In this document: in pieces, positions 38,734 to 60,355 of the stretch
Layout of the letters: each line of letters opens with the position of its first letter
Numbering within the stretch: the stretch's first letter is position 1
The notes under the pieces: model-generated
The model's database searches: none
What the model was told of the DNA's origin: nothing
Seen by the model: only the letters and a program-made list of their open reading frames with translations
Virus record (IMG/VR): IMGVR_UViG_3300014590_000001
Location: 96,001-160,000 of that record
DNA length: 64,000 bases
Strand: one strand, 5' to 3'
From: a virus
Lineage: Duplodnaviria; Caudoviricetes
Made by a program: the position numbers and the translations under genes

Positions 38734-38789
38734 ATTCTAATACAAAAGTATTAGATAAGCCATCGACATTTTGGACACAGATTTGCAGA
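38734..38789 (-). promoter_or_regulatory. Box-type promoter 1 (upstream of gyrB)
   Basis: TCTGCAAATCTGTGTCCAAAA-N6-TGGCTT-N17-TAGAAT. Confidence 0.8.
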
Positions 38790-38829
38790 GTTGGTCAAAT
38801 TTTAACCAGTGCAGCTTAGTTGACTATAA

Positions 38830-39171
38830 TCAGTCTTGAATCACCGTAGCGTCAATCAGAGTGCGGTAGCTGGCCTCGTCTACCTCGTTAACGTCGATAG
38901 GGAACGCAGCAGGATTATCAGAGTCACACCACGCCTGAATATCAGAAACGAATTCACCGTACTTGATCATTTCAACGCCATCCATTTCAGACAGCAGTTT
39001 GATTTCGTGAGCGTTGCGAGAATCAATTACGCTCGTGCGAATTGAACGAATGGTATGATCGAAAAAGCAGATTGCGAACTTAGTATTTGAAATTCTAATA
39101 GCGCGAAAAATTTCTTTGCTGAGTTGCGTTGCTTCTTCTTCGTGTTTCTTAAAACGTTCGTGAAGATTCAT
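38830..39171 (-). CDS. Hypothetical protein
   Basis: 113-aa ORF. Confidence 0.7.
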   Translation of the reverse strand: MNLHERFKKHEEEATQLSKEIFRAIRISNTKFAICFFDHTIRSIRTSVIDSRNAHEIKLLSEMDGVEMIKYGEFVSDIQAWCDSDNPAAFPIDVNEVDEASYRTLIDATVIQD

Positions 39172-39205
39172 TTAGGAACCTGAGTGAGAATTTGGACTAG
39201 AAACG

Positions 39206-39239
39206 AAAAACGGGCTAGAGATATTAATCCCTAACCCGT
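39206..39239 (-). terminator. Intrinsic terminator
   Basis: ACGGGTTAGGG...TCTAGCCCG-TTTTT. Confidence 0.75.
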
Positions 39240-39277
39240 AAAAGTTAATCAGCGTTTGGGAACTTCGAAACTAGTTC

Positions 39278-39808
39278 TTAGTTGTCCAGTTCGAATTCAA
39301 AGTCGCCTTTGCCTTTTTTCTTGGACTTTTTATCGCCCTTCACTTTCTTGTCAGCTTTCGCTGGCTTGTCAGCTTTTGCTTTCTTACCAGCTTTCGCAGG
39401 TTTTTCTTCAGCGGCTTTCTTGCCAGCTTTTTTGTCAGCCTTAGCTGGCTTTTCAGCTTTCTCTGCTTTGGCTTTCTTACCAGCCTTAGCAGGTTTTTCT
39501 TCAGCAGCTTTCGCTTTCTTACCAGCTTTCGCAGGTTTTTCTTCAGCAGCTTTTTTGCCTTTAGCCGGAGCAGCTTTGTCAGCCTTAGCAGCTTTTGCTT
39601 TCGGTTCAGCTTTTGCTTTAGCGGCTTTAGCCGGAGCAGCTTCGCCGTTGTTTTGCAGAGCTTCTACCTGAGCGGCCAGAGAAGCGCGACGTTCAGCCAG
39701 CTTAGACTGTTCACCGGAGATCTGTTCAGCAGTTTTGCCGAGATTCTTTTCAGATTTTTCAATCGCGCGGATTTCTTTGTTCAGAGCGGAGATAACTTTC
39801 TTAGACAT
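39278..39808 (-). CDS. Histone H1-like Lys/Ala/Pro-rich protein with N-terminal coiled coil
   Basis: Repeated KAAEEKPAKAGKKAKA units; GAGG RBS at MSKKVIS. Confidence 0.8.
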   Translation of the reverse strand: MSKKVISALNKEIRAIEKSEKNLGKTAEQISGEQSKLAERRASLAAQVEALQNNGEAAPAKAAKAKAEPKAKAAKADKAAPAKGKKAAEEKPAKAGKKAKAAEEKPAKAGKKAKAEKAEKPAKADKKAGKKAAEEKPAKAGKKAKADKPAKADKKVKGDKKSKKKGKGDFEFELDN

Positions 39809-39984
39809 AATAACCTCTATCAAAATAAATGTTCGTTGTGGAAAAACAGAAATCGTTTCTGCGTAGAAGTACATTAGCATGTTCAATGTACTTCTCGCAA
39901 TTTTTCTTCAAAGATTTTCGAAGAATTTTTTGGCCTGAGCTTAGTCCTAAAACCTATCAGGCCGCGCCACCGTCAGATGATTAC

Positions 39985-40812
39985 TTATTCGTCGTCTTCG
40001 TCTTCGTCTTCATCGTCGAAGTCTTCGTCTTCGTCATCTTCGTCTTCTTCGTCGTCACCAGCGAAGTGCGCTTCCAGAGCTTCGCGCAGTTCGTCTTCGT
40101 CTTTCTTTTTAGCCTGAGCTTTGGTGAACACGCCTTCTTCGATTGCTAAAGCGCGAAGTTCTTTTTCGTCGAGGTCGTCGAGATCTTGTTCATCTTCGTC
40201 CTCGTCGTCTTCATCTTCGTCTTCATCATCTTCATCGTCGCCGTCTTCGTCGTCTTCGTCGTCCGAGTCTTCATCATCCTCGTCTTCGTCGTCTTCGTCT
40301 TCGTCGTCACCATCTTCGTCGTCTTCGTCTTCGTCATCCTCTTCATCATCGGAATCGTCGTCAGAATCGTCGTCAGAATCGTCGTCGCCGTCTTCATCTT
40401 CGTCGTCTTCGTCTTCTTCATCTTCGTCATCAGAAGAGACACCCATCGCTTCGTTCAGCAGTTCGCGAAGTTCGTCTTCGTCCATGCTGCCAGCTTTTTT
40501 CTTGGTAGCAGCTTTAGACTTCACTGCGGCTTCACGCAGAGTTTCTTCGTCTGCGTCAGAAATATCGATCGCTTCTTCTTCTTCAATCGCTTCCACGATT
40601 TGAGCAGCGGTCACTTTCGCTTTTTTCTTACCAGCTTTAGCTTTCGGTTCAGCCTTAGCAGCTTTACCGCCTTTACCTTTAGCGGCAACAGTCAGACCAG
40701 CTTCAGCCAGCAGTTCGGCAACTTCGGAATCAGCAGATGCTTCAACCAGAATGCCAGCCATCTTAGCCAGAACTTCCATCGCTACGTTAGAGGTCTTTTT
40801 AGCTTTTGCCAT
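39985..40812 (-). CDS. Hyper-acidic protein with two 37-aa helical (HEH/Rho-N-like) repeats
   Basis: About 80-residue D/E tract flanked by DxxDxDEx(E/T)LR...DEDELRExL repeats. Confidence 0.85.
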   Translation of the reverse strand: MAKAKKTSNVAMEVLAKMAGILVEASADSEVAELLAEAGLTVAAKGKGGKAAKAEPKAKAGKKKAKVTAAQIVEAIEEEEAIDISDADEETLREAAVKSKAATKKKAGSMDEDELRELLNEAMGVSSDDEDEEDEDDEDEDGDDDSDDDSDDDSDDEEDDEDEDDEDGDDEDEDDEDEDDEDSDDEDDEDGDDEDDEDEDEDDEDEDEQDLDDLDEKELRALAIEEGVFTKAQAKKKDEDELREALEAHFAGDDEEDEDDEDEDFDDEDEDEDDE

Positions 40813-40870
40813 GATACTTTATTTCCTTTAGAAGAATGTTTAGTATTGAAACATCGTTATGTTCAATTAC

Positions 40871-41009
40871 TATTTACAGTATTTAAGAGAAAGTGTTTTC
40901 AAGCAACGCCACCGAAATTTATCAGCGGCGTTTCGACATTAACTGTTTACAGTTTTCTGTCTGACATAATCCGTTTACAGATTACGCCTCACGATATTAC
41001 TTTACAGAT
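40871..41009 (-). promoter_or_regulatory. Cluster of four CTGTAAA motifs around an 11-bp hairpin
   Basis: TTTACAG-containing sites at about 40871, 40944, 40972 and 41000; hairpin 40905-40932. Confidence 0.55.
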
Positions 41010-41026
41010 TTGCCTACGAAACTGGA

Positions 41027-41608
41027 TTAGAAGTTTTCGTCAGACTTTTTCTTTTTCTTGCCAGCTTTATCAGCTTTGCCGCCTTTGGAAGATTTCTCTT
41101 CCTTGCCGCCAGATTTTTTCTTTTCGGTCGCAACCGGAGTGCCGTACTTACGTGCAGCAACCGCCTCGTCAACAACCGCACGAACGTCGTAACCAGCAAC
41201 AGTGGTGTTAACGCGAGTGACTTCGCCAGTTTGAATATCGGTGCCGATAATCACGTCGTCTTTAACTTTTACAGTTTGACCACGGATGATCTGGACAGGC
41301 ATGTATGCGTCAACCAGCAGTTGACCCATTTCACCAGCTTCACCGATGAAGGTGATGATTTGCGATTTGGTGAAAGTGGTTACAACTTGTTTGGAAGAAC
41401 CAGCGCCTTTCTTGTGGCGAATCGTAACGCTACCATCGGAAGTAACGTCGATGATGAAACCTGAAACTTCGTGAGCGCCACGAGCAGAGATTTCAATATC
41501 GTGCGCCAGATCGCTTTGCTTGGATTTAACGCGAGCAATAGCGCCAGCTTTCTTTGCAATACGGTCGATACGTTTTGGAGCCAGTGCGGTGCTTTTAGAT
41601 TTGGACAT
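41027..41608 (-). CDS. Beta-rich hypothetical protein with basic termini
   Basis: GGAG RBS; KKKKKSDENF C-terminus. Confidence 0.8.
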   Translation of the reverse strand: MSKSKSTALAPKRIDRIAKKAGAIARVKSKQSDLAHDIEISARGAHEVSGFIIDVTSDGSVTIRHKKGAGSSKQVVTTFTKSQIITFIGEAGEMGQLLVDAYMPVQIIRGQTVKVKDDVIIGTDIQTGEVTRVNTTVAGYDVRAVVDEAVAARKYGTPVATEKKKSGGKEEKSSKGGKADKAGKKKKKSDENF

Positions 41609-41627
41609 TTCGAAACTCCAGTTTCAC

Positions 41628-42392
41628 TTACTTCATTTGTTCAAGGATAAATTCGACAACGGCATTTGCAGCGGCATCGAACAGTTCGGTATTAGACACT
41701 AAATCAATTAGTGACTTCGAATATTCTGTCACATTTTCATGGAACGTCTTCCATGAGACAGGAGATTCTTGCATATCGGAAATGACGTAGCGGATTGCCT
41801 CCCATTCCCAACAGTGCCTCAATTCTGACTGAACGTAAGCCCGAATGTTTTCACGTACTACCTGTTTTTCCTTTACAGATAATTCGATAAACATATTAGG
41901 CCAGCGCCCATCGAAACGATTTCGGAAAGTTTTATCAAATGCTTTCGCAGCATGAGACTGACGATTGGTGCTTAGTGTCGTGGCAGCGAGATAAACAACG
42001 ACAGTATGCAAACGAGATAGCGCTTTAATCAGCACATCCTCAACCAATCTTTCCGCAGGTGTTTCCGGAACATCCAGAATCTGTCTCTGAAGTTCAGCAA
42101 TCTGCCTATTAAGATTATCGACTTCAGAAGAATAAGTTTGAGAAATCGACTCAATCTTATGCAGAGCTTCGGCAGCATTCTTATTTGCTTGCTCTACCAC
42201 ATTACTATTTTTCAGTTGGAGGTCAGAAAAGTTTCTCTCCAAAACAGCCAACTGTATTTGCAACCTACCAACTTCCAACAAACGCTCATTATGCAGACGT
42301 TCGGTAATAGACAGTTGAGTTGTTTTTGTTTCGATTTCCTGTCTCGAAACGAACAATGCAGCATTAAGAGCATCGAGTTGTGAATCAGACAT
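41628..42392 (-). CDS. Coiled-coil hypothetical protein
   Basis: Start MSDSQLD, GAGG RBS. Confidence 0.7.
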   Translation of the reverse strand: MSDSQLDALNAALFVSRQEIETKTTQLSITERLHNERLLEVGRLQIQLAVLERNFSDLQLKNSNVVEQANKNAAEALHKIESISQTYSSEVDNLNRQIAELQRQILDVPETPAERLVEDVLIKALSRLHTVVVYLAATTLSTNRQSHAAKAFDKTFRNRFDGRWPNMFIELSVKEKQVVRENIRAYVQSELRHCWEWEAIRYVISDMQESPVSWKTFHENVTEYSKSLIDLVSNTELFDAAANAVVEFILEQMK

Positions 42393-42444
42393 TATCAATC
42401 CTCGTAAGTGGCGCAGGATATTCCCCACGCCACTTATTTACAGA

Positions 42445-45378
42445 TTACTCTTCGGATTCGTCTTCGTCTTCGTCAGCAACAATACCGCTAACATCAGACA
42501 GCAGAAGAGTCAGGTCGCCGCCGTTCGCAAACGCAGCGTCAGCAACGCCAGAGGACAGCAGAATCAGCGGCAGGTTAGTTGTGCCGAGAGACATTGCAGC
42601 TTCCATCAGATCGTCAGCTTCGTTTACACGCTGAACATCGTTCGTGGTGTAAGACGCAACTTCGATTTCGTCGCTTGCCATATCGCTAACAGATTTCACA
42701 ACGTTACGCAGCGCTTCGTCGGAAACCAGAGAACCAGCATTCAGCGTGAAACCAACGTAAACTTTCATATCGGTTTCGCCAATGTGGGAAACAACACGAT
42801 TGTATGCGCTAGTAACCAGAGCAGAAACTTTCTTCTTATCCAGACCCCAAATGCAAGGCAGTGCGATGTTCAGCACAACCGTATTCAGCACAGTGCTTTC
42901 AGTGTCCACTGTTACCGGACGAACAGAAACGTGTGCGTTGTACAGTGACGCCATCGGAACATGATCACCGATCAGTTCAGACAGATATTCTTCTGACAGA
43001 TCATCTTCGTCAATTTCGTCTTCGTCGTCGATGAAGTCACCAAGAACCAGACCGTGTTCGTAAGGATCTTGACCTGCTTCCAGACGGCCTTCATACAGCA
43101 GCGCGTCCAGTTGGCTACGCATAGTGTTGCCGAGTTTTTCGGAATAAGTTTCAACGTTGAAAGTTGAACGCTCAGACATGAACGGCAGCGCAGCAGAGCC
43201 GGACAGCAGATCGGTCGCTACAGTCAGAGGCAGATACATCGCACCTTCAACTTCGTCAGTCAGGTTGAACGGTACGCGGTAGTTAACACCGGATTGATCC
43301 GCGAGTTCTTCAGAAATATTTTCGAAGGTATCGCGATCAGTCAGGGTGAAGTTAACCAGCAGCGTTTGTTCTTGACGAACGCGCAGGAAAGTTCCGAGAT
43401 CGTTAGATGAACTTTCTTCAACGAAATTTTCGTCGTTTTGTTCTTCGGCTTCTTCCGCGTCGATATCATCGTTTTCCGCGTCGGCTTCTTCTTCCGCGTC
43501 GATATCCGCGTTTTCCGCGTCGGCTTCTTCGTCGTCTTCCAGATCTTCGGCTTCGTCTTCGTCATCAGCGACGTAGCCGTTTTCCAGACGATACTGTTCG
43601 AATTGTTTCAGCACGGCAACTTTGCCGTCGTTTTCGATTTCTTCACCAGCAGCTTCAAGCGCCGCTACACGTTGATCGTGAGACAGTTCGCCACCTTCAA
43701 ACTGGAACAGTTCGGTGTAGTCAACCGGATTAACTTCGTAACCAACGAATGACGGGAAGTGCGCCGCAACGGTTTCGTTTTCACCGAGTTCACGAACCAG
43801 TTGTTCGAATTCTTCAACGTCAGCGAATTCAGTTTCAGCCAGAGCATTCAGGATCAGTTCCAGAATGTCAGTTGCAGACTGCTTTTTGAAAGTAGTCAGG
43901 CCGAAACTTGCAGAGCGAGCGATAACGCGAACGGCATCGCGATTCAGTTCACCTTCGCCAACTTCAGCGGCAACCAGAGAAGCAAATTCAGAAACCGGAT
44001 CGAAGGTAGCGTCTTCGTCTTCGCCATCTTCGTCGTCCTGATCTTCATCGTCCTGATCTTCGTCGTCCTGATCTTCATCAGCGTCTTCAGAATCGTCTTC
44101 GTCTTCCGAATCTTCTTCAGAATCTTCTTCAGGAACGTCGTCGTTTACTTCTTCCGACTCAGCGTGGATGTAAGTCGCCAGCGCTTCGTTGCCGCCGAGT
44201 TTTTCGTTTGCTGCGATCAGGAACGCAAACAGTTCGTTGTATTCAAACGCACCAACCAGATCCAGCAGTTTGGTTGTCAGAGTTTCTTCGGTGTCAGAGG
44301 TAAACACTTTACCGCCAGCAACGAACACCAGTTTTTTCAGGCCAGCGCGATCCAGATTTGCATTCAGAAGAATACCAGCCAGAGTTTCGGCAGCGTCGAA
44401 TTCTTCTTCGTCGTCACCTTCTTCGGTTTCTTCTTCGCTTTCTTCCGCGTCGTCTTCAGTTTCCAGATCGTTTTCTTCTTCGCTTTCCGCAGCAGCTTCG
44501 CCAGCACCTTCGAGGAAGTCAGCACGTTCGCTTTGATACGCCAGTGCGATCTCTTCATCAGGCATTGCGCCGAGGTCATAGCCGATTGCGATCAGCGCTT
44601 CCGCTTTCTCTTCGATAGAAACAGAAGACTGATTTTCACGTTTGAAAACATCAAGAGCATTGCCCACTTTATTCCCCTTAATAGGATTGATCAGGAAGTT
44701 CACGCGAGATACTTCCGAGCGAACTACAAAACTTAATGCAGCACCTTCCAGCAGAACGACTTCAGCTTTGGTTTCGTTCCAGTTGATTACAGGCGCGTTG
44801 ATTTGGTCAACGTTAGCTTTCAGAGCAGGAACGAAATTCGCTTCGTTACGCTCGATTGCTTCCAGTTGGTCACGCAGAGAATTCACAACACCGTGTGAAC
44901 TACTTTCTGAAGTTACTGCGATTGCGTGTACGCCGAAACGAGAGGCATATGACGCTAACGTAGTATTATCATTTGCAGCTTTCTCTGCGACTTTAAACAA
45001 CGCTTCCGAAATAAGTTTCTGGAGGCGCTCTACGTTACCATTTACAGTATAACGCAGAATCATTGCCGCACTATCTTTCAGTTTCACGCGCTCGTCGATG
45101 GACGCGGCAGCGCCACCACGCGTACCAAGCACTTCCAGAACAGCGGCATCGTTGCCAGCGATAGCCAGAAGGTCAGTCAGACGGTTAAGCGCTTTGCCCT
45201 GCGCAACGGTTTGGGTAACGTTGCCGTTATTTTCGGCGCGGTAAATCTGATTACCATTTACAGTAGGGCACAGCAAAACAACAACAGTGCTTTTGGTTCC
45301 AGAAGAACCCTGATTCAGATTCTGCGCAGTCAGATTTGCATTGTGCGCGGCAGTTCCGAATTGTTGAGTTGAAGTCAT
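42445..45378 (-). CDS. Large acidic multi-domain protein (977 aa)
   Basis: Several D/E tracts, DEDQD and AENxDIDAEE repeats, short helical modules between them. Confidence 0.85.
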   Translation of the reverse strand: MTSTQQFGTAAHNANLTAQNLNQGSSGTKSTVVVLLCPTVNGNQIYRAENNGNVTQTVAQGKALNRLTDLLAIAGNDAAVLEVLGTRGGAAASIDERVKLKDSAAMILRYTVNGNVERLQKLISEALFKVAEKAANDNTTLASYASRFGVHAIAVTSESSSHGVVNSLRDQLEAIERNEANFVPALKANVDQINAPVINWNETKAEVVLLEGAALSFVVRSEVSRVNFLINPIKGNKVGNALDVFKRENQSSVSIEEKAEALIAIGYDLGAMPDEEIALAYQSERADFLEGAGEAAAESEEENDLETEDDAEESEEETEEGDDEEEFDAAETLAGILLNANLDRAGLKKLVFVAGGKVFTSDTEETLTTKLLDLVGAFEYNELFAFLIAANEKLGGNEALATYIHAESEEVNDDVPEEDSEEDSEDEDDSEDADEDQDDEDQDDEDQDDEDGEDEDATFDPVSEFASLVAAEVGEGELNRDAVRVIARSASFGLTTFKKQSATDILELILNALAETEFADVEEFEQLVRELGENETVAAHFPSFVGYEVNPVDYTELFQFEGGELSHDQRVAALEAAGEEIENDGKVAVLKQFEQYRLENGYVADDEDEAEDLEDDEEADAENADIDAEEEADAENDDIDAEEAEEQNDENFVEESSSNDLGTFLRVRQEQTLLVNFTLTDRDTFENISEELADQSGVNYRVPFNLTDEVEGAMYLPLTVATDLLSGSAALPFMSERSTFNVETYSEKLGNTMRSQLDALLYEGRLEAGQDPYEHGLVLGDFIDDEDEIDEDDLSEEYLSELIGDHVPMASLYNAHVSVRPVTVDTESTVLNTVVLNIALPCIWGLDKKKVSALVTSAYNRVVSHIGETDMKVYVGFTLNAGSLVSDEALRNVVKSVSDMASDEIEVASYTTNDVQRVNEADDLMEAAMSLGTTNLPLILLSSGVADAAFANGGDLTLLLSDVSGIVADEDEDESEE

Positions 45379-50193: not shown

Positions 50194-50249
50194 ATAGTGC
50201 ATGAAACTCTCAGAAGTTTCAATCAACATTTTAGACACTATTTTGCAGA
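50194..50249 (-). promoter_or_regulatory. Box-type promoter 2
   Basis: TCTGCAAAATAGTGTCTAAAA-N6-TTGAAA-N17-CACTAT. Confidence 0.75.
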
Positions 50250-50272
50250 GTTCCCAAAGGTGGAGACTTTGC

Positions 50273-50355
50273 AAAAAAGTGTGGGCATCCATTCCCACAT
50301 AAAGGTTCCAAACAAACTACTTGATACTTGAGGGTTCAGAGCGTTGCCGCCCTGT
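50273..50355 (-). ncRNA. Candidate small RNA, about 83 nt
   Basis: Own box promoter; 5' GCAA-tetraloop hairpin; 3' TGTGGG/CCCACA hairpin with CTTTTTT; no enclosed ORF. Confidence 0.6.
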
Positions 50356-50361
50356 CCTTAT

Positions 50362-50417
50362 ATTCTAGCTGAACGGAGCGGCAAATGCTATCGGTATTTT
50401 GGACACTTATTTGCAGA
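50362..50417 (-). promoter_or_regulatory. Box-type promoter 3 (drives the candidate sRNA)
   Basis: TCTGCAAATAAGTGTCCAAAA-N6-TAGCAT-N17-TAGAAT. Confidence 0.8.
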
Positions 50418-50427
50418 CTTTGAAACT

Positions 50428-51014: not shown

Positions 51015-51070
51015 ATAGTATGAAAGTTTCGTGTCCAAAACAACCTGTATTTTGGACACTGTTTTGCAGA
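51015..51070 (-). promoter_or_regulatory. Box-type promoter 4 with an inverted extra half-box
   Basis: TCTGCAAAACAGTGTCCAAAA-N6-TTGTTT-N17-TACTAT; second GTGTCCAAAA on the + strand at 51031-51040. Confidence 0.8.
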
Positions 51071-51076
51071 CTTGCT

Positions 51077-51819: not shown

Positions 51820-51820
51820 T

Positions 51821-52416: not shown

Positions 52417-52436
52417 AAAATTTTCTCCAGAAAGTT

Positions 52437-52463
52437 AAAAAGGGCAGCACCGAAGTGCCACCC
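52437..52463 (-). terminator. Intrinsic terminator
   Basis: GGGTGGCAC-TTCG-GTGCTGCCC-TTTTT. Confidence 0.88.
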
Positions 52464-52471
52464 GAATTTAT

Positions 52472-53248: not shown

Positions 53249-53340
53249 TTTGTAGTTCCTTTGGGATTTACGTTGAAAGCATGTAAGGTGAAAACCCCGT
53301 AAATCCTTACACGCTTGTTGAGGCAAGTGCCTCGGTCTTT

Positions 53341-53396
53341 ATTGTCTCAAAATAACGAGGCGATAGCCACCGATATTTTGGACACTGTTTTGCAGA
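53341..53396 (-). promoter_or_regulatory. Box-type promoter 5
   Basis: TCTGCAAAACAGTGTCCAAAA-N6-TGGCTA-N17-GACAAT (TGn extended -10). Confidence 0.75.
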
Positions 53397-53434
53397 CTTG
53401 CTAGGTCTTGTTATGCGTCTTCTGAAAGGCACAT

Positions 53435-53503
53435 AAAAAGACGGCTTGATTCATCACCTCCGTCCGTGGAGGCATTCGTTGGGGAAATCCAGAATCAAGC
53501 CGT
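53435..53503. ncRNA. Candidate three-way-junction structured element
   Basis: Perfect 12-bp closing stem ACGGCTTGATTC/GAATCAAGCCGT enclosing two hairpins. Confidence 0.45.
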
Positions 53504-53543
53504 GAGCAAGTTAGCTCTAATAGTTGCACAACCTTTCTAAAAC

Positions 53544-54335
53544 TTATTCCTCGTCTTCTTCTTCACCTTCTTCGACGAGATCTTCAATGATGTTATCGCC
53601 ATCGAATTCGTCAGTGAAAACTTCTTCTTCATCTTCGAAATCGAAATCTTCTTCGTCGTCTGCATCCAGTTCGAGAGACAATGAAGAGTCAACGCGATCT
53701 TTATTTTCCATGTAGGCGATTGCTTCACGCGCCATTGAAGTGAAACACATATCAGGATTCACTTTCAGTTCGTGCAGCATGAATTTGTCTTGCCACTCTG
53801 CGCGATTCTTTTCAACGATTTCGTCAACGTGATCTTCCAGTTCCTCCCCGCCGCGAATTGGCAGTTCGAGGAATTTCATTACGTGGCGCACTTCGCGAAT
53901 CGGAGACTCGCACAACATTTCATAGAGCGATTGACGTTCAATGCTGTCACGCGCTTCAATCAAAAACGCTTGCAGTTTTTCGCTGTTACGTACTGCAACG
54001 CGCTTGACCGCTTTCTTTGTAGGCACAAGTTTATCGTGCAAAGAAATCAGCGGAACTTCGGCGTATGCGTTTCCGATTTCGAGAATCGTACACATATCGA
54101 CAAAACTTTCTGCGTCCTGCATTGGATCGATTTTCACAACGCTGCGCATCACGACTTGCGAATCCAATTCGCTACCATCAGAGTAGATGATAGAAACAGG
54201 TAAGGCGCTTCCGTAGATCTTCGCAATTGCTTGCGACAGCAGAAGGCCAGGAACGTGCGGGGCAATTAACTTTCCGTTCAGCAGGAAAGAATAAGTGATA
54301 CCACAGAAACCGGTTTTACGTTGAATAGTTAACAT
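53544..54335 (-). CDS. Hypothetical protein with acidic C-tail
   Basis: 263-aa ORF. Confidence 0.8.
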   Translation of the reverse strand: MLTIQRKTGFCGITYSFLLNGKLIAPHVPGLLLSQAIAKIYGSALPVSIIYSDGSELDSQVVMRSVVKIDPMQDAESFVDMCTILEIGNAYAEVPLISLHDKLVPTKKAVKRVAVRNSEKLQAFLIEARDSIERQSLYEMLCESPIREVRHVMKFLELPIRGGEELEDHVDEIVEKNRAEWQDKFMLHELKVNPDMCFTSMAREAIAYMENKDRVDSSLSLELDADDEEDFDFEDEEEVFTDEFDGDNIIEDLVEEGEEEDEE

Positions 54336-54357
54336 AGCAAGATACCTACCTTTAAGT

Positions 54358-55179
54358 TTATTTTGATTGAGCGATCAGGAATTCTAACAGAGCAGCATCT
54401 GGATTGTTTCTAGCTTTAAGCGTTATGCCCATATTGTCAGCAGCATCGCGAACGCTTTCAAAATCCAGCAAATCCAAAAGTTCATTAACTGCTTGTTGCG
54501 TAGTTCCTTCTAGCTCGCCAATATTCAGAGTTGTTGCGAGTTCGTTCAACACTTCAAGATCTTGAGAGAGTAAAACGAACTTCAATTGTTGGTAAGTCCC
54601 CGAAGTTTGTCGCCGTTCTTCAGGAGTAAGGCTATCAACTTCAGCAATACGTTTGCGTGTATTGCGAAGTGAGTCAGGAGCTTTCTGTACATCAGCAGGA
54701 GAAAATTCTTCCTGCAACTTATTTTCAGTTTTAACAGGATTGGCTTTAGGTTTTGCCTCTTTAACTGGTTTCTCTTTCTTCGGCTTTTCTTCCGGTTCAG
54801 CGAAATCAGTTTCACCCAATTCAACCAACTTGCCTGTATAACCATTTTTAGAATAGACAATACCAACTACGCTTGTTGCAGAATGCGGCAATTCAATCAA
54901 AGTAAAATCAGGTGCATCATGTTTCACCAGCGCCCAATCTCCGTGAATAGCGCGGAAATTAAAATCGCCAATAACTTTTTCTACCAGTTGCGGAAGTTTA
55001 CGACGAGGCGTGTTTTCCAAAACTTTGTGAAGATCCGCAACAGAAAACTTAATGTAGTTGTCGTTAAACAACTCGCCCTTTTCGTACAGTCCACGGCGAA
55101 CAGCTTCGTTAGCTTCGAAGATACTTACCAGTGCCGCACGTACACCATCAAAATCACTCTGACTTGTTACAGCAGACAT
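54358..55179 (-). CDS. Hypothetical protein, paralogue of 52472..53248
   Basis: GAGG RBS; shared core domain. Confidence 0.8.
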   Translation of the reverse strand: MSAVTSQSDFDGVRAALVSIFEANEAVRRGLYEKGELFNDNYIKFSVADLHKVLENTPRRKLPQLVEKVIGDFNFRAIHGDWALVKHDAPDFTLIELPHSATSVVGIVYSKNGYTGKLVELGETDFAEPEEKPKKEKPVKEAKPKANPVKTENKLQEEFSPADVQKAPDSLRNTRKRIAEVDSLTPEERRQTSGTYQQLKFVLLSQDLEVLNELATTLNIGELEGTTQQAVNELLDLLDFESVRDAADNMGITLKARNNPDAALLEFLIAQSK

Positions 55180-55189
55180 TTCATTTACC

Positions 55190-55597
55190 TCAACTTAAAA
55201 TTTGTTGCAGCGACAGCACCGGAATTTCCGGAATGAAGATAAAGATTTTTTGCTCAGGAATATCGGATTTGAGTACCGCATGTTTTTTCATGTACTCAGT
55301 TCCATCCGCTACCATCCAACCGCCGAACCAGTTCGCGAATTCAGGCGAGGCTAACACGCGATTAATGCAGTTGGTTGTTTCCGCTTCATCCCATTGATGA
55401 TCCACCATCGCGCCATCACCGAAAACAATGCGAACATCGTTTGCATTAGCGTAGAAGTCGATCATCGGAACGTGAAACGCGATAGCGCCATTGCGTTGCA
55501 TATGTTGATCGACTTGCGAGAAAACTTCTTCGACTTTGCGAGCAGCCGCATATAACGCCAACTTGCCAGTAAACTTATCCAAGTCTAAAACTTTCAT
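55190..55597 (-). CDS. Hypothetical protein
   Basis: 135-aa ORF. Confidence 0.7.
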   Translation of the reverse strand: MKVLDLDKFTGKLALYAAARKVEEVFSQVDQHMQRNGAIAFHVPMIDFYANANDVRIVFGDGAMVDHQWDEAETTNCINRVLASPEFANWFGGWMVADGTEYMKKHAVLKSDIPEQKIFIFIPEIPVLSLQQILS

Positions 55598-55770
55598 TGT
55601 GCAGTTACCTTGTATCGAACGACGGTGCGGGTGGATGTTTCTACGTGCGCCTTTGTGAAGTGAATGCCGCGCATACGTGCAGCAAATTCAAAGTCACCTA
55701 AATCAATTCCAGTAGGAAAAACGATCTTGCCCTTACGCTGTAACTCTGCAAGTTTTTCCGAAATGCTCAT
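55594..55770 (-). CDS. 58-aa hypothetical protein
   Basis: Manual translation MSISEKLAELQRKGKIVFPTG...RYKVTAQ; ATGA overlaps at both ends. Confidence 0.7.
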   Translation of the reverse strand: MSISEKLAELQRKGKIVFPTGIDLGDFEFAARMRGIHFTKAHVETSTRTVVRYKVTAQ

Positions 55771-56372
55771 GCGTATGCCTTTTTAAACTTTGGTGTAGCG
55801 AAAGACCATAATGCTTTGCGTACATAATAAAGGAGAGAATGCTGAACACTGAAAACGTCTACAGTGAACGTTTCAGTTTTCATACCATAACGAACGTCAG
55901 CCCATACGATTGCGCTCACGATATCTTCGAGCATCCACTCAGTAGTGAACGATGGATGAATTGAACGCTCTAAGAAAATGCGACCTGCTTTTGAAATGCC
56001 GGACAGAATATTTTCGCCGTCGTGTGTTAAGCGAACTCCATCAGCGAAATCAAAACCGCCTGGGACAAAAAACGGAATCCATTTTCCGGTCAACGAAATC
56101 TTGAACGGTGAAATAATGGATTTCAAAAACGAGTGAGATTTTTTCAGATACTCACGAACGAAATGCAAACGCATATTTGCATTGTCGATATTTTCGTAAC
56201 CTTCAATTTCAACCGGAACTTTAATCATCGTCCACTTGTGTTTGTACAAGTCGAGATTGTGTTTGTAGCTGGACAGACGCAAATCGAATGAATGCCCGAT
56301 TGCACGATCCAGTACAGCGTCTTGCAGTTCAATCAGGTTGTTTAAGTCGGCTACGGTTTTGAGAGCGAACAT
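55767..56372 (-). CDS. Hypothetical protein
   Basis: AGGAG RBS; first gene after promoter 6. Confidence 0.75.
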   Translation of the reverse strand: MFALKTVADLNNLIELQDAVLDRAIGHSFDLRLSSYKHNLDLYKHKWTMIKVPVEIEGYENIDNANMRLHFVREYLKKSHSFLKSIISPFKISLTGKWIPFFVPGGFDFADGVRLTHDGENILSGISKAGRIFLERSIHPSFTTEWMLEDIVSAIVWADVRYGMKTETFTVDVFSVQHSLLYYVRKALWSFATPKFKKAYA

Positions 56373-56426
56373 ATAGAACTCCTTTGCAGTCTATATAAAA
56401 GTTTAGGTTAGGTACGGCTTACCCTT

Positions 56427-56482
56427 AGTTTACAGAATAAGCCGTTTTGTTGCCAGCGGTATTTTGGACACTTATTTGTCGA
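56427..56482 (-). promoter_or_regulatory. Box-type promoter 6 (upstream half degenerate, overlaps a stop codon)
   Basis: TCGACAAATAAGTGTCCAAAA-N6-TGGCAA-N17-TAAACT. Confidence 0.75.
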
Positions 56483-57092
56483 GATCTACGATAGTGACCC
56501 GCTTCATTCCTTCGGGCGCGATAACCTTGCCATCGTTTGTAGTCACTGAATATTGCTCGATATGAACGCCCTTATTAAGTTGCGTCTTCAGAGCTTCAAG
56601 GAACATCGCTTTACGCGCCTGAAGTTTCGCGAGCCGTTCTTCAGCACCATCCCATTTCGCTTTGCCGAGTTGGTGAATACCGCGCTCAATGTTTTCCATG
56701 TGACGCGTGAACAGATGATATTCAATGTAACGATCAGCAGCGATGATTTCATCCACTGTTTCGTTTTGATAATACGCATTCAGGAAATTCAACATGCCGT
56801 CAGCGCTATCATCCATTTGACCGTAAGAGGCATTCGGGAATTGATTACGTCCTTCCAATCCGTTCCAGTTGAAAAGGAATCCGTCATACTTCAGTTCTTT
56901 ATTTTCTGACGTATCCCAATGGCAAGGAACTTTTTCATGATGCACACAAGTTGCTTCAATAAAAGTTACATCCAGAATTTCTGCGTCGAGATCGGTTGTT
57001 GGAAACGCGTGTGCCTTTTCAATCGGATTGCCGTTGTTATATTTGTGCTGGAAAGCGAAGAAGACGTATTTTTTATTCAGTTCGAAGCGCAT
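56472..57092 (-). CDS. Hypothetical protein
   Basis: 206-aa ORF. Confidence 0.75.
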   Translation of the reverse strand: MRFELNKKYVFFAFQHKYNNGNPIEKAHAFPTTDLDAEILDVTFIEATCVHHEKVPCHWDTSENKELKYDGFLFNWNGLEGRNQFPNASYGQMDDSADGMLNFLNAYYQNETVDEIIAADRYIEYHLFTRHMENIERGIHQLGKAKWDGAEERLAKLQARKAMFLEALKTQLNKGVHIEQYSVTTNDGKVIAPEGMKRVTIVDLDK

Positions 57093-57115
57093 GATTATTT
57101 TCCGTATCAGAGAAT

Positions 57116-57517
57116 TTATTTAGACCATTTGAAATCGACGAGAGCATTGCGGATAATCTTGCTGCGCAATTCCGCTTGCGCTTTTCGGCAATACGCTTTC
57201 CAAAGTTTGTCTTTTACTTTGGAGTAATCCGACGGGCCATCGTTAGATGAAACCATGTTGTCTTTCGCCAAATAAACCAGATTGGCAAGCAGACGTTTAA
57301 TGGAGCGGTCTAATGTGGCTTTGATTTTCAAATTGCCTTTGTCGCTAACGCGAACAACCACACGCAACAACTTTTCTTTCTCAATAGGCAGCGAGAAGGT
57401 GTACGGCGTAGAATCTACTTTCACCATCACCCTAGTTTCAATGTCAGCCTGACTAAGATTCAACAGGCTAGTGAGAGTGCGTTGCAGAAGAACATCATAA
57501 ATTGATTTCTTACTCAT
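57116..57517 (-). CDS. Hypothetical protein
   Basis: 133-aa ORF. Confidence 0.7.
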   Translation of the reverse strand: MSKKSIYDVLLQRTLTSLLNLSQADIETRVMVKVDSTPYTFSLPIEKEKLLRVVVRVSDKGNLKIKATLDRSIKRLLANLVYLAKDNMVSSNDGPSDYSKVKDKLWKAYCRKAQAELRSKIIRNALVDFKWSK

Positions 57518-57523
57518 GATCGC

Positions 57524-57730
57524 TTATACCTTTGTTACTTTAGGATTGATGTTGAAATGCTTCTGAACATACAGAGCACCTTTACCTGCGGCGACGTTAA
57601 ATTCCATTGTCTGCCCTTCGTCTTCGAAAGGATGAATACCGAGCGGCAGTTCGGTTGTGACAATCACTTTATCACAACCATTGCCTGTCAAAACTTCAAC
57701 GCGTTTCACACGCAGATTGATTGTTTCCAT
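57524..57730 (-). CDS. Small hypothetical protein
   Basis: Start METINL, GGAGG RBS. Confidence 0.7.
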   Translation of the reverse strand: METINLRVKRVEVLTGNGCDKVIVTTELPLGIHPFEDEGQTMEFNVAAGKGALYVQKHFNINPKVTKV

Positions 57731-57731
57731 T

Positions 57732-58184
57732 TTACACCTCCACGCTTGCAATGCCGATGAAGAAATCTTCGTAAGGCAGAATTAAAAAGTTAACGACACT
57801 CAGAAGTTTTGTGTCGGGCAATCTGAACGACTGTACAAAACAATCTTCAGGATTCGTTTGCGTATAACGCACAAACAATTCGTTCAGCAGGAATTTGTAA
57901 TCGTCGTCAGCAGGTGAAAACTTCTCACCATCGTAACCGAGCATTTCCAGCAGCACGGAAGTTTGTACACGATGACCGCCTTTCGAAATCACATACACAA
58001 ATGAGATCGGAAGAATTGATTTATTGGTGCCGTGTGACTCGTTGTAGCGCTGAACCGCCTCACTCTCTACTTGCTTAAAGAATGGTTCAGTGCTTTGCCA
58101 AAGTCTATTCTGAAACAAAACCGGACGAGTGCGAAATTCTACACCACTCAATACAAGCAATCCACTTTTCGGATCGAAGTTCAT
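57732..58184 (-). CDS. Hypothetical protein
   Basis: 150-aa ORF. Confidence 0.7.
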   Translation of the reverse strand: MNFDPKSGLLVLSGVEFRTRPVLFQNRLWQSTEPFFKQVESEAVQRYNESHGTNKSILPISFVYVISKGGHRVQTSVLLEMLGYDGEKFSPADDDYKFLLNELFVRYTQTNPEDCFVQSFRLPDTKLLSVVNFLILPYEDFFIGIASVEV

Positions 58185-58708
58185 TTTATGTCCTTAGCCA
58201 TATCAGGCCAATGGGATTTATTTATGCGAGCGCGAATTGTGCGAAAGAAGTTTCCTTCAATGTAACCGCTAAACGGTTCGGCTCGTAACTCGTTTCTTAC
58301 GTGATACGATTCAATGGCAAGCATCACTTTCTCAGGATTCACCATGTCCTTCGCCGCCGCATAAATGATTTCACGAGAATTGATTTCCAGTTCAAACGTG
58401 ATTCTGCTATTGCGCACACCGATCACGAAAGGATCAATGCTTTGCGAAATAACCGGAACAACTAAAACCAATTCCCCTTTCCGATAACGAGCAGCGGAAG
58501 TAACAATCTTTTGTGCGTAAGGTTCCAGTGAGCGAAAGTACGCATTAAGAACATCAGCATCTTTAAAGTGTTTAGGAACCGGAAGACGAAACACGCGATA
58601 GTTTAGCTCGTAGTGGAGCAGCGAACCGCGCTGAATGTCGTTGTTCAGAATGTTGTTCTGAATTTCAGCAAGAGTCATTACGTCAGAGATAGCGGCGATT
58701 GGGAACAT
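58181..58708 (-). CDS. Hypothetical protein
   Basis: 175-aa ORF. Confidence 0.7.
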   Translation of the reverse strand: MFPIAAISDVMTLAEIQNNILNNDIQRGSLLHYELNYRVFRLPVPKHFKDADVLNAYFRSLEPYAQKIVTSAARYRKGELVLVVPVISQSIDPFVIGVRNSRITFELEINSREIIYAAAKDMVNPEKVMLAIESYHVRNELRAEPFSGYIEGNFFRTIRARINKSHWPDMAKDIK

Positions 58709-58719
58709 TAGTTTCTGTC

Positions 58720-59418
58720 CTAGTAGCGTTTAATTGAATTTATGTAATCCAACATTTCAAGTTTATGTTGAATCACGTAACGTTCGAACATTCTCTTTGC
58801 CTGTTCGGTACAGAATACCAGAGAGCGGAGAAAGTCGATTCGGTCATACACGAAATTGATAAGACGATGATCGTCAAATGCGTACTGCGGGAAAACTGAA
58901 ACGAGTTCACCGCGCAGACCTTCAACAATCGTTACAGCACGGCCAGGCATAACGCCCCACAAAATATCCGCATCACGTAAAACTTTTTCGTACACGGTTT
59001 GCGGCACACGGTCTTCAGTGTATGGGAATTGCGTAATCAGAATCAGCTTTTCAATTTCTTTTTCCAGACGTTTAAAATCGGGATTAGAATCGGATTGCCA
59101 AATCCAGTCATGCAGAGCAGAGATCGCGTTTTGAATATTAACATCATCGCTGAATTCCCCTAACGTGTGATCCATATCGTGAATCAACGCAGCAGCCAGC
59201 AAGGAGAAAATTTCGTCATGACTCTCTTTTGCAGATTCCGGAAGAAGATCCAAACACAACAACGCCACCCCATCCATGTGCATTGTTGTGTGGTAAAGCA
59301 TAGTTGTATTCTTCACTGAATTGTTTTGCGCGATCCACTCACGATATTGTGTTAGACCATACTGATTGCAAATTTCATTCAGACGAGAATCAAACTCAAC
59401 GCTAGTGAGCAGTGCCAT
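58720..59418 (-). CDS. HD-superfamily phosphohydrolase (PDE-like motif spacing)
   Basis: YHTTMH...AALIHDMDHTLG...LRDAD; start MALLTS. Confidence 0.8.
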   Translation of the reverse strand: MALLTSVEFDSRLNEICNQYGLTQYREWIAQNNSVKNTTMLYHTTMHMDGVALLCLDLLPESAKESHDEIFSLLAAALIHDMDHTLGEFSDDVNIQNAISALHDWIWQSDSNPDFKRLEKEIEKLILITQFPYTEDRVPQTVYEKVLRDADILWGVMPGRAVTIVEGLRGELVSVFPQYAFDDHRLINFVYDRIDFLRSLVFCTEQAKRMFERYVIQHKLEMLDYINSIKRY

Positions 59419-59429
59419 AATTTTTTTCC

Positions 59430-59951
59430 TTACGCAGCGGCAGGAAAAAAGGATCGCCATACTGTTAAGATAGACGTACCGTTTTTCCTGCGAGTACGAA
59501 CAATGAGAGGAATGCCGGTGTAGAAACCGTGTATCATTGCAACACGTATTTCTTCTAAAGAAATTCGCGGTGAGCGATCTTGATAACCGAAGTATAACTC
59601 GTCCGGCGAGCTAACATGCTCAGGCACACGCTCTACAAAAGTAGAAAGCATTGCAGCGAATTTTTCTTCTATCTCCACTCTACCATTTTCATGAGCGAAG
59701 ATTTCTTCGCGAGCAGTTTCAGTGTGTGCAACCGGAACGATCAACGGGATTGCTTTTTCTGGACGCTTATTAGCGTACTCTTCATACAGCGGAGTGACAA
59801 ACGGATAGTTGCGAGAAACGCATTCGCAAAATTCGTATATCATCGACTCTGGAGCGCTTGGAACAATAAGCGTGAGTAAAGCAAATTCCTGCGAAGGAGC
59901 GAAAGGCTTTAACAGTTCGGTCTGGAAATCAAGTAAAGCGTTTACGTTCAT
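59430..59951 (-). CDS. Hypothetical protein
   Basis: GAGG RBS. Confidence 0.7.
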   Translation of the reverse strand: MNVNALLDFQTELLKPFAPSQEFALLTLIVPSAPESMIYEFCECVSRNYPFVTPLYEEYANKRPEKAIPLIVPVAHTETAREEIFAHENGRVEIEEKFAAMLSTFVERVPEHVSSPDELYFGYQDRSPRISLEEIRVAMIHGFYTGIPLIVRTRRKNGTSILTVWRSFFPAAA

Positions 59952-59961
59952 AGTGTATACC

Positions 59962-60255
59962 TCAGTAATGTTTTAGGCCGCGTACAACTTCTCCCGCGAG
60001 ATTGATTAAGCGAACAATATGCAATGCGTCTTTTTCATAACGCGGTTTATATGCAACACTGTATTCGATGACTTCTTGAATTAATTTCAGTGCAACATTT
60101 TTGCGCCTGTTCATTAACTCCCGATAAGCAGCGCAACTTTTATCGGTGAGGACAGAGACAATATCATTTGGGCGCTTTGCGCGTTCAAGTTCGAGCTTGA
60201 AAGCAATGAAGTCGAGAGCCAGTTTACGAGCTTTCTCTTGAGTTCTAATGGTCAT
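59962..60255 (-). CDS. Hypothetical protein
   Basis: First gene after promoter 7. Confidence 0.7.
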   Translation of the reverse strand: MTIRTQEKARKLALDFIAFKLELERAKRPNDIVSVLTDKSCAAYRELMNRRKNVALKLIQEVIEYSVAYKPRYEKDALHIVRLINLAGEVVRGLKHY

Positions 60256-60299
60256 GGTCGATTACCTGTGCAAATGAGTGTATGTGTTTCCCTTCGCCT

Positions 60300-60355
60300 A
60301 GTTTACCTAAGCGAAACGGCAAATGCCATCACTATTTTGGACACCAATTTGCAGA
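60300..60355 (-). promoter_or_regulatory. Box-type promoter 7
   Basis: TCTGCAAATTGGTGTCCAAAA-N6-TGGCAT-N17-TAAACT. Confidence 0.8.

What the first reader, a model, noticed from the sequence alone, without database searches (positions are those of the whole stretch)
38734..60355. Phage-specific promoter class: a 21-bp box at an invariant 29 nt upstream of the -10 element (7 copies)
Seen: the minus-strand motif TCTGCAAA-N3-GTGTCCAAAA begins (plus-strand coordinates) at 38769, 50229, 50397, 51050, 53376, 56462 and 60335, always between genes or at a gene end. In all seven, exactly 29 nt separate it from a -10-like hexamer (TAGAAT, CACTAT, TAGAAT, TACTAT, GACAAT, TAAACT, TAAACT). The layout is box-N6-[-35]-N17-[-10], and the -35 is mostly non-canonical (TGGCnn in four copies, TAGCAT, TTGAAA, TTGTTT). 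Known: activator sites abutting a weak -35 define middle promoters in T4 (MotA) and Mu (Mor/C). Inference: this is a regulon in which a phage activator or RNAP modifier recruits host sigma70. Its targets are the topoisomerase, genes of the acidic/basic island and an sRNA.
Basis: partly seen in the sequence, partly recalled or inferred. Interest (0 to 1): 0.85.

Follow-up and report, generated by a model that had tools for sequence, protein, structure and literature searches.

The report
Boxed promoter class of giant phage
A giant phage starts about eleven of its early or middle operons from ordinary-looking bacterial promoters that all carry the same long upstream tag, and the same tag also sits in front of one accessory gene in likely host bacteria, which hints that an infection-specific protein reads it.

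Summary
The window holds 7 copies and the 256.7-kb phage genome holds 11. All lie on one strand within 48 kb. Another window of this scan had already noted the eleven copies (e1-5482083).

Across 48 copies in six phages of four lineages, 46 place a TAnnnT-type hexamer exactly 29 nt after the box. These lineages are this phage with JA29 and JA33 (Salmondvirus), Yoloswag, AD1 and fHe-Yen9-02. 85% have T-n-G at the -35 place. Predicted starts lie 38-86 nt before the next gene in 9 of 11 copies. Yoloswag and AD1 add a TGn extended -10. These are sigma70-type promoters.

The box varies by phage lineage (TGTCC, TGGTC, TGG[A/T]C), even between phages that infect the same host strain. No host regulon was found. 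I therefore favour a phage-encoded reader acting as an activator, but no such protein was identified.

Two things are new.
- Most copies carry a stem-loop around the -10 or at the start of the transcript, as in the PeSL cassettes of T4-type phages.
- The box, with the same layout, precedes one rare gene in Leclercia and Silvania chromosomes. It occurs there in two flavours that match two phage lineages.

The parts
38734..38792 (-). Box promoter in front of the type II topoisomerase genes. AAC plus box at 38769-38792, -35 place at 38757-38762 (TGGCTT), -10 at 38734-38739 (TAGAAT), predicted start near 38727.
   Evidence: An orthologous copy lies before the topoisomerase gene in JA29, JA33 and Yoloswag. 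The topoisomerase alignment starts at residue 41 of the long ORF.
50194..50252 (-). Box promoter (1 mismatch) in front of the acidic 543-aa gene and ten further genes. Box at 50229-50249, -10 at 50194-50199 (CACTAT).
   Evidence: a hairpin at the start of the transcript is conserved in JA29 and JA33.
50362..50420 (-). Box promoter of a short ORF-free unit, in tandem with the promoter at 50229. Box at 50397-50417, -10 at 50362-50367 (TAGAAT).
   Evidence: The tandem pair is conserved in JA29, JA33 and Yoloswag.
50272..50355 (-). Predicted small RNA of about 85 nt. It has a GCAA-capped hairpin at its start and ends in a stem followed by six T.
   Evidence: The terminator stem is kept with different letters in JA29 and JA33, and in a larger form in Yoloswag. 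There is no Rfam match.
51015..51073 (-). Box promoter in front of a 179-aa basic protein gene. Box at 51050-51070, -10 at 51015-51020 (TACTAT).
53341..53399 (-). Box promoter in front of five genes. Box at 53376-53396, -10 at 53341-53346 (GACAAT, preceded by TGa).
   Evidence: the orthologue in JA29 has TAAAAT at the same offset.
56427..56485 (-). Box promoter (2 mismatches); the box overlaps the last 11 nt of the upstream gene. Box at 56462-56482, -10 at 56427-56432 (TAAACT).
56414..56445 (-). 12-bp stem whose loop holds the -10 hexamer of the 56462 promoter.
   Evidence: Fold z = -4.5. JA29 has an 11-bp stem at the same place with different letters: ACGGCTTA/TAAGCCGT against ACGCCTTT/AAAGGCGT.
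60300..60358 (-). Box promoter in front of eight genes. Box at 60335-60355, -10 at 60300-60305 (TAAACT).
   Evidence: a stem overlaps the -10.

Best explanation
The sites are a lineage-specific class of sigma70-type promoters. Each has a weak -35 (T-[T/A]-G), a 17-bp spacer and a TAnnnT -10. These are read by the host RNA polymerase core with host sigma70 or a sigma70-like factor. A conserved block of about 33 bp, AAC-TCTGCAAA-N3-GTGTCCAAAA-TAccG, spans about -65 to -37 and abuts the -35. I infer that a phage-encoded sequence-specific protein binds this block on one face of the DNA. Two CAAA(A)T half-sites lie 12 bp apart. The protein would help RNA polymerase bind, so that about eleven operons switch on together. 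These operons carry host-takeover, anti-defence, nucleotide and DNA-topology genes.

Most copies also carry a stem-loop. It either encloses the -10, where it could stop read-through from the operon upstream, or it forms the first 20-30 nt of the transcript.

Shown: the motif, its geometry, its position before genes, its conservation and its lineage-specific variants.
For: - Eleven copies occur on one strand, with a clean gap to the background.
- Of 48 copies in six phages, 46 have a spacing of 29 and 2 have 30. The -10 and -35 letters differ between orthologues but keep the consensus and the spacing.
- TGn precedes the -10 in 7 of 10 Yoloswag and 6 of 6 AD1 copies.
- Predicted starts lie 38-86 nt before the next start codon in 9 of 11 copies.
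- Stem-loops are more stable than shuffles, with mean z -1.6 in 48 copies. A stem spans the -10 in 27 copies and lies at the start of the transcript in 33. One compensatory pair is documented.
- The box differs by phage lineage, although JA29 and AD1 were isolated on the same strain, Dickeya solani MK10.
- No host regulon was found. Matches in three Leclercia and Silvania genomes and in 401 genomes of the order are at control level, apart from one locus.
- That one host locus keeps the box perfectly while its flanks and its protein diverge to 53-64% identity. It occurs in the Salmondvirus and the Alexandravirus flavour.
- The phage has no RNA polymerase of its own according to the literature on its group (PMC7412058).
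Against: - No candidate DNA-binding activator was found. Pfam and PHROGs scans of 107 proteins encoded between 126 and 205 kb gave no helix-turn-helix, MotA, Mor or Ogr family. The rest of the genome was not scanned.
- In Yoloswag and AD1 the cores are near-consensus extended -10 promoters, which normally need no activator.
- I found no separate set of strong sigma70 promoters that could express an activator first.
- The two A-tracts sit near -43 and -56, close to where UP-element subsites lie.
- There are no transcription start data. RNA contigs from metatranscriptomes could not show starts.
Confidence: 0.5

Rival explanations
1. The sites are early promoters read by host RNA polymerase alone. 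The box acts as a UP-like element contacted by the alpha C-terminal domains. Its high conservation comes from common descent and recombination between copies, as proposed for PeSL cassettes.
For: A-tracts lie at about -45..-42 and -57..-55. Yoloswag and AD1 have near-consensus extended -10 cores. No other strong sigma70 promoters were seen in the genome. Downstream genes such as Acb1 anti-CBASS, dUTPase and many small ORFans look like early genes. PeSLs are sigma70 promoters with stem-loops and conserved flanks (PMC2839356).
Against: The invariant positions are GC-containing (TCTGC, GTGTCC) and far better conserved than the -35 and -10. The box changes in concert between phage lineages that share a host strain. 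Promoters sit at orthologous places in different genera, so their likeness is not recent duplication. The host genomes have only one such site each.
Confidence: 0.17
2. The box is an operator. A phage-encoded repressor made early binds it and shuts off all these promoters together when the next phase starts.
For: The cores are strong enough to work alone in two lineages. A single asymmetric site is shared by all promoters of one class. The lineage-specific variants fit a phage-encoded reader.
Against: The site lies upstream of the -35 rather than over the core. Spacing is held to the base in 46 of 48 copies. The weak cores in this phage and the very poor -10 at the host locus (TCATTA, TGATAA, TCATTT) fit dependence on activation better than repression. 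A host gene gains little from a site for a phage repressor.
Confidence: 0.13
3. The box promoters are read by the phage's own sigma70-like factor (345 aa, genome 193933-194964, outside the window). They would be middle promoters of a sigma cascade, with an extra part of that factor or a partner reading the box.
For: The gene matches PHROG 17569, 'RNA polymerase sigma factor' (E 3e-140). A profile of its relatives hits region 2 of SigA chains weakly (E 0.01). Its model (pLDDT 80) finds E. coli sigma70 chains first (E 3e-4). The melting-region aromatic residues are kept. A two-part promoter fits a factor that has both region 2 and region 4.
Against: A sigma region 4 cannot reach 29 nt upstream of the -10. 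The TGn-TAnnnT cores are textbook host sigma70 sites. A second abundant motif, ATCTGTAAA, lies in front of replication genes and of the sigma gene itself, and is an equally good or better candidate for this factor.
Confidence: 0.12
4. A host transcription factor reads the box (for example BaeR, whose published box is TCTNCANAA) and the phage borrows it.
For: TCTGCAAA(A/T) fits 6-7 of the 7 specified letters of TCTNCANAA (PMC3799227). The box is present and conserved at a host chromosomal locus.
Against: There is one site per host genome, and looser matches are at control level. The TCT part is not conserved in Yoloswag. The variants follow phage lineage, not host. The host gene that carries the box is rare, found in 2 of 301 Enterobacteriaceae sampled.
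Confidence: 0.05

Closest known systems
PeSL (promoter-early stem-loop) cassettes of T4-type phages (Arbiol et al. 2010, PMC2839356; Comeau et al. 2014, PMC4122927)
   Same: Both are repeated intergenic cassettes in ORFan-rich regions. Each has a sigma70-like promoter plus a stem-loop lying between the -35 and -10 or over the -10, and conservation that extends beyond the core hexamers.
   Different: PeSLs have an AT-rich stretch upstream of the -35. Here that place holds a nearly invariant, GC-containing box of 21-26 bp with lineage-specific variants. The stems here vary in sequence, and in many copies they lie in the transcript instead. The phage group is unrelated to T4. Terminator activity and recombination between copies were not tested.
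T4 middle promoters (MotA box with AsiA, sigma appropriation)
   Same: A phage-specific box combined with a sigma70 -10 and a poor -35; a regulon of early-to-middle genes.
   Different: The MotA box is centred at -30 and replaces the -35. This box spans about -62 to -42 and leaves a T-n-G -35 place. No MotA or AsiA family was found in the proteins scanned.
Mu Mor/C-dependent and P2 Ogr / P4 delta-dependent promoters
   Same: Small phage activators bind just upstream of, or overlapping, a weak -35 and contact RNA polymerase. The P4 satellite uses the helper's activator, which is a precedent for a non-phage locus wired to a phage factor.
   Different: Mor and Ogr sites are dyad-symmetric (Ogr: TGT-N12-ACA at -55). 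This box is asymmetric, with two direct CAAA(A)T half-sites 12 bp apart. No Mor or Ogr family was detected. These site descriptions are from my own knowledge.
T4 early promoters and UP elements
   Same: A-tracts near -42 and -52 to -56 upstream of sigma70 promoters in a lytic phage (my own knowledge).
   Different: UP elements are degenerate and A/T-rich. Here the GC-containing letters are the best conserved.

Membership tests
sigma70-type bacterial promoter | -10 hexamer with A at position 2 and T at position 6 (TAnnnT) | tested here: met
   TAnnnT in 79% and nAnnnT in 96% of 48 copies at one offset, against a background of 1.3%.
sigma70-type bacterial promoter | -35 element TTGACA-like, 17 +/- 1 bp upstream of the -10 | tested here: met
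   T-n-G at offset 6 in 85% of copies. The spacer is 17 in 46 of 48 and 18 in 2. Only 2-4 of 6 letters match TTGACA in this phage.
sigma70-type bacterial promoter | Transcription starts 5-9 nt after the -10 | not testable with these tools
   Only assembled contigs of RNA runs were available, and they cannot show starts. Indirect support: starts would lie 38-86 nt before genes, and hairpins begin 5-10 nt after the hexamer.
T4 MotA-dependent middle promoter | Box centred at -30 replacing the -35; MotA and AsiA encoded by the phage | tested here: not met
   The box ends 29 nt before the -10. No MotA or AsiA family was found among 107 proteins from 126-205 kb. The rest of the genome was not scanned.
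Mu Mor/C or P2 Ogr-dependent promoter | Dyad-symmetric activator site upstream of or over the -35 | tested here: not met
   The box has no dyad. It has two direct half-sites 12 bp apart.
UP element | A/T-rich sequence from -60 to -40 read by the alpha C-terminal domains, without a need for specific G/C letters | tested here: inconclusive
   A-tracts are at the right places, but the invariant letters include TCTGC and GTGTCC, and these vary by phage lineage. Binding was not testable.
PeSL cassette | sigma70-like promoter plus a stem-loop between the -35 and -10 or over the -10, repeated between ORFans | tested here: met
   At least 4 bp span the -10 in 27 of 48 copies. Mean z is -1.6. One compensatory pair is seen in three orthologues.
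PeSL cassette | The stem-loop terminates upstream transcription; copies recombine | not tested
   Only the copy at genome position 169425 has a run of T after the stem. Indels between this phage and JA29 were not analysed.
BaeR regulon site | TCTNCANAA box conserved wherever the element works; several sites in the host genome | tested here: not met
   The TCT part is not conserved in Yoloswag. The host genomes have a single site.

The most novel reading that the evidence does not exclude
The box is the recognition site of a phage-encoded transcription factor, and some Enterobacteriaceae use it as a tripwire. In Leclercia, Silvania and relatives, a rare accessory gene lies between gor and treF. 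It encodes a 134-aa beta-solenoid protein with pentapeptide-like repeats, and usually sits divergent from a CHAT/caspase-like gene. This gene sits behind the same AAC-box-N6-TTGTTT-N17-hexamer layout but with a crippled -10. It would therefore be silent until an infecting phage of this family supplies its own activator. The host site exists in two flavours that track two phage lineages, which suggests an arms race at the level of promoter specificity.
Probability: 0.3. Interest if true: 0.85.

Novelty: new variant of a known kind. Interest (0 to 1): 0.62.

Why it matters
Nothing is known about how giant phages of the PaBG/Lu11/Salmondvirus group, which lack their own RNA polymerase, time their gene expression. 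This motif gives a ready-made regulon of 11 operons here and about 50 promoters in six genomes. Its geometry is precise enough to test directly, using phages that are already in culture (JA29, AD1 on Dickeya solani; Yoloswag on Erwinia).

The combination of promoter and stem-loop extends the PeSL idea beyond T4-type phages. If the host copy proves to be switched on by infection, it would be a defence gene that senses a phage through the phage's own promoter code.

Tried and rejected
- **RNA evidence.** One run search and one laying of four metatranscriptome runs gave only contigs from relatives 90-99% alike. Their ends did not coincide with predicted starts and cannot show starts, so they do not bear on the question either way.
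- **Sigma domains by Pfam.** Sigma70_r2 and Sigma70_r4 found nothing in the genome. The sigma gene was found only through PHROGs, a profile and a fold search.
It has no Pfam family and belongs only to an unnamed PHROG. I found no support for calling it a sigma factor.
- **Omega-repressor-like hit.** The hit in the 315-aa basic protein (window 47480-48424) has E 4e-4 and lies below the cut-off, so it is not used.
- **BaeR box resemblance.** Considered and rejected, as set out under the rival explanations.
- **Sigma54 reading of TGGC.** The GG-to-GC spacing is wrong. This was judged by eye.
- **Rfam.** No match on the small-RNA unit.
- **Host proteins.** PADLOC, PHROGs and NCBIfam found no family for the two host proteins. 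The Foldseek search of the 134-aa model gave no significant match; the rows were weak beta-helix hits, including the pentapeptide-type SV2 domain.
- **Literature.** Searches for the phage names with 'promoter', and for the motif strings, found no description of this motif.
- **Alignment of the 56462 orthologue pair.** The aligner put the two stems out of register, so the tool's consensus fold is not informative there.


Full report
**What the window is.** The window is bases 96001-160000 of a 256,657-bp phage record. It is about 76-78% identical in DNA to the Dickeya solani jumbo phages JA11, JA13, JA29 and JA33, genus Salmondvirus. The literature places these phages in the PaBG/Lu11 group. 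That group is described as having a sigma70-like gene, and no RNA polymerase subunits are reported (PMC7412058). My own gene calls give three strand blocks. Almost all genes between 86.8 and 205.5 kb are on the minus strand.

**The observation.** The 21-bp pattern occurs 7 times in the window, always on the minus strand and at the reported places. Shuffles give 0.17 expected. The genome has 11 copies with at most 2 mismatches, all on the minus strand between 134769 and 182254. Nothing else has fewer than 4 mismatches.

It reads AAc, the box, TAccG, one free base, T, one free base, G. After 17 poorly conserved bases comes tAnaaT. All eleven copies have the hexamer exactly 29 nt after the box.

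**Conservation in relatives.**
- JA29 has 10 copies, all on the gene strand and within the 50 kb upstream of its topoisomerase gene.
- JA13 and JA33 have 9-10 copies, Yoloswag at least 10, AD1 at least 6 and Yersinia phage fHe-Yen9-02 two. All are in the same orientation and region.
- Erwinia phage pEa_SNUABM_30 has the AD1-type variant.

In 48 curated copies the spacing is 29 in 46 and 30 in 2. TAnnnT is present at offset 29 in 79% of copies and nAnnnT in 96%, against a 1.3% background. T-n-G is present at offset 6 in 85%.

Orthologous promoters differ in their hexamers, for example GACAAT here against TAAAAT in JA29, but keep the consensus and the spacing. In Yoloswag and AD1 most copies have TGn directly before near-consensus hexamers such as TATAAT (7 of 10 and 6 of 6). 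This is the signature of promoters used by a sigma70-type factor.

The predicted starts lie 38-86 nt before the next start codon in 9 of 11 copies. The box follows the upstream stop codon by a few bases, or overlaps it.

**The '29 nt' explained.** The invariant distance is 6 + 6 + 17. The 17-bp spacer is what sigma70 requires. The 6 nt between the box and the -35 place are themselves part of the conserved block. The element is therefore best described as one composite upstream block, about 33 bp long, joined to an otherwise ordinary core.

**Stem-loops.** The stretch from the -35 place to +32 folds more stably than shuffles, with mean z -1.6 and 15 of 48 copies below -2. There are two forms.

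In the first form, seen in 27 of 48 copies, a stem of at least 4 bp encloses or overlaps the -10.
- Examples are the copies at window 56462 (z -4.5) and genome 169425 (z -4.7).
- The stem at 169425 is kept in JA29 and JA33 with one G-C to C-G exchange.
- The stem at 56462 is kept in JA29 with different letters in both arms.

In the second form, seen in 33 of 48 copies, a hairpin of 5-11 bp begins 5-10 nt after the hexamer, at the very start of the predicted transcript. This position supports the predicted start.

The arrangement matches the published PeSL cassettes of T4-type phages. Those are strong sigma70-like promoters with a stem-loop between the -35 and -10 or over the -10. They are thought to stop upstream transcription and to act as recombination points (PMC2839356; PMC4122927).

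**Who reads the box.** The universal core across lineages is CAAA-N4-TG-nn-CAAAA. The two middle letters and the preceding base differ by lineage: GTGTCC in Salmondvirus, TGGTC in Yoloswag and CTGG(A/T)C in AD1. JA29 and AD1 were isolated on the same strain, D. solani MK10. AD1 shares its variant with Erwinia-infecting relatives. The variant therefore follows the phage, not the host. Because the promoters sit at orthologous places in different genera, a concerted change in all copies points to a co-evolving reader encoded by the phage.

A host regulon was sought and not found.
- An exact scan of one genome from each of about 185,000 species gave 26 single hits. My own estimate of the chance expectation is about 17.
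- Looser matches in three Leclercia and Silvania genomes, and core-pattern matches in 401 genomes of the order, are at control level.

Pfam and PHROGs scans of 107 proteins from 126-205 kb found no classic DNA-binding regulator. They found the following:
- single-strand DNA-binding protein and a UvsX-like recombinase;
- DNA methylases and a UvdE nuclease;
- Tpt1 and LigT-like proteins;
- dUTPase and a transglycosylase;
- a radical SAM protein and Acb1 (anti-CBASS);
- a DksA/TraR zinc-finger protein;
- one sigma factor.

The sigma gene lies at genome 193933-194964.
- It has a sigma70 region 2 by profile (E 0.01).
- Its model is closest to E. coli sigma70.
- It is preceded by a second abundant motif, ATCTGTAAA. 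That motif also precedes replication and recombination genes on both strands.

Which promoter class this factor reads is open.

**Timing.** I found no separate set of strong sigma70 promoters in the genome; the best-scoring core is itself a box promoter. Together with the strong cores in Yoloswag and AD1, this keeps an early, activator-free reading alive. It also leaves room for a factor injected with the DNA. Another note of this scan proposes a capsid-targeting tag on many proteins, which I did not test. The weak cores in this phage fit activation better.

**The host copy.** Three of the 26 exact hits are one orthologous intergenic site in Leclercia adecarboxylata, a Leclercia MAG and Silvania hatchlandensis.

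The site has the full phage layout:
- AAC, then a box identical to the commonest variant in this phage;
- six bases, then TTGTTT;
- 17 bases, then a poor hexamer (TAATTA or TCATTA);
- a hairpin, a ribosome-binding site and the start of a 134-aa gene.

Adding these extra features to the 18-letter match makes chance unlikely, by my estimate of the order of 1 in 1000.

The gene lies between gor and treF. It gives a weak pentapeptide-repeat match (E 4e-5, below the cut-off). Its model is all-beta and repeat-like, with pLDDT 71, and has no significant structural match. It is usually divergent from a gene of 236-240 aa whose nearest Atlas clusters are named CHAT or DUF6642. That naming is only a lead.

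The 134-aa gene is rare. It was found in 2 of 301 Enterobacteriaceae sampled and in 22 protein clusters in the large collection. It has no relative in 50,697 phage records or in this phage.

Every homologue I fetched carries the box.
- Six have the TGTCC flavour, although the proteins are only 64-99% identical and the flanks differ.
- Three have CTGGATAAAA or AATGGACAAA, which is the AD1 flavour.

The box is therefore under selection in bacteria that have no other copy of it, and it comes in the same two flavours as the phages. This is an inference. A local host regulator is not excluded, although one genome lacks the divergent partner gene. The sites also suggest that this phage infects Leclercia-like bacteria. 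That would fit the seed, plant, insect, food and wastewater runs that hold its sequence. It is a lead, not a finding.

- The 38769 copy precedes the two topoisomerase II genes. The true start of the first gene is about 40 codons inside the long ORF.
- The 50229 copy precedes the acidic 543-aa gene and ten more genes.
- The 50397 copy is followed 168 bp later by the next box. In between are a GCAA-capped hairpin and a stem with six T, and no credible ORF. This gives an RNA of about 85 nt. JA29 and JA33 keep the same layout with a terminator stem of different letters, and Yoloswag keeps a longer version.

**Verdict.** The promoter reading is strongly supported. I put the reading that a phage factor recruits host polymerase at about one half; rivals are a UP-like element, a shut-off operator and the phage's own sigma factor. 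I found no description of this motif in the library searched. It is a new variant of known kinds: activator-type phage promoters and PeSL-like cassettes. The host copy is the unexpected part.

Noticed in passing
L042:5592-6901 (Leclercia adecarboxylata chromosome); also L046, L052, L061-L067: A host accessory locus between gor and treF. A 134-aa beta-solenoid, pentapeptide-like gene sits behind a perfect copy of the phage box and its promoter layout. It is usually divergent from a 236-240-aa gene whose nearest Atlas clusters are named CHAT or DUF6642. The box occurs in two flavours that match the Salmondvirus and Alexandravirus phages.
   Followed up: partly
window 62704, 42437, 41872, 41001, 40974, 25492 (minus strand) and about 20 more places in the genome: A second repeated motif, (A)ATCTGTAAA, lies in gene orientation 25-60 nt before start codons on both strands. 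It often follows terminators and often has TAtAnn 7 nt downstream. It differs by one letter from the first half of the box (TCTGCAAAT), and in JA29 one box promoter has it as its -10 region.
   Followed up: partly
genome 193933-194964 (minus strand, outside the window; L030:13930-14964): A 345-aa sigma70-family factor. Pfam misses it; a PHROG, a profile hit to SigA region 2 and a model closest to E. coli sigma70 identify it. ATCTGTAAA lies directly upstream of it.
   Followed up: partly
It has no Pfam family and only an unnamed PHROG, so I found no support for that reading.
   Followed up: partly
L029:6773-7027 (genome 166770-167027, minus strand): An 85-aa DksA/TraR-type zinc-finger protein is encoded inside the box regulon (Pfam E 5e-9). 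Such proteins act on RNA polymerase through its secondary channel, so it may help reprogramme host transcription.
   Followed up: no
genome 126-205 kb: The minus-strand arm carries Acb1 (anti-CBASS), Tpt1, LigT-like, UvdE, radical SAM, dUTPase, a transglycosylase and a Cas4-like nuclease. I did not place each of these relative to the box promoters.
   Followed up: no
window 36609-38702 (minus strand): The long ORF of the topoisomerase large subunit starts at a GTG, but all relatives align only from residue 41. The real start is probably about 120 nt further in, leaving a leader behind the 38769 promoter.
   Followed up: no
window 39281-50128: Coding repeats such as GAAGACGAAGAC dominate the genome's repeated words. 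They come from very acidic proteins (pI 4.1-4.3) that alternate with very basic ones (pI 9.8-10.2).
   Followed up: no
window 46001-64000: Seed and wastewater metatranscriptome runs hold contigs 90-99% identical to this region. Close relatives of the phage are therefore present in those samples.
   Followed up: partly
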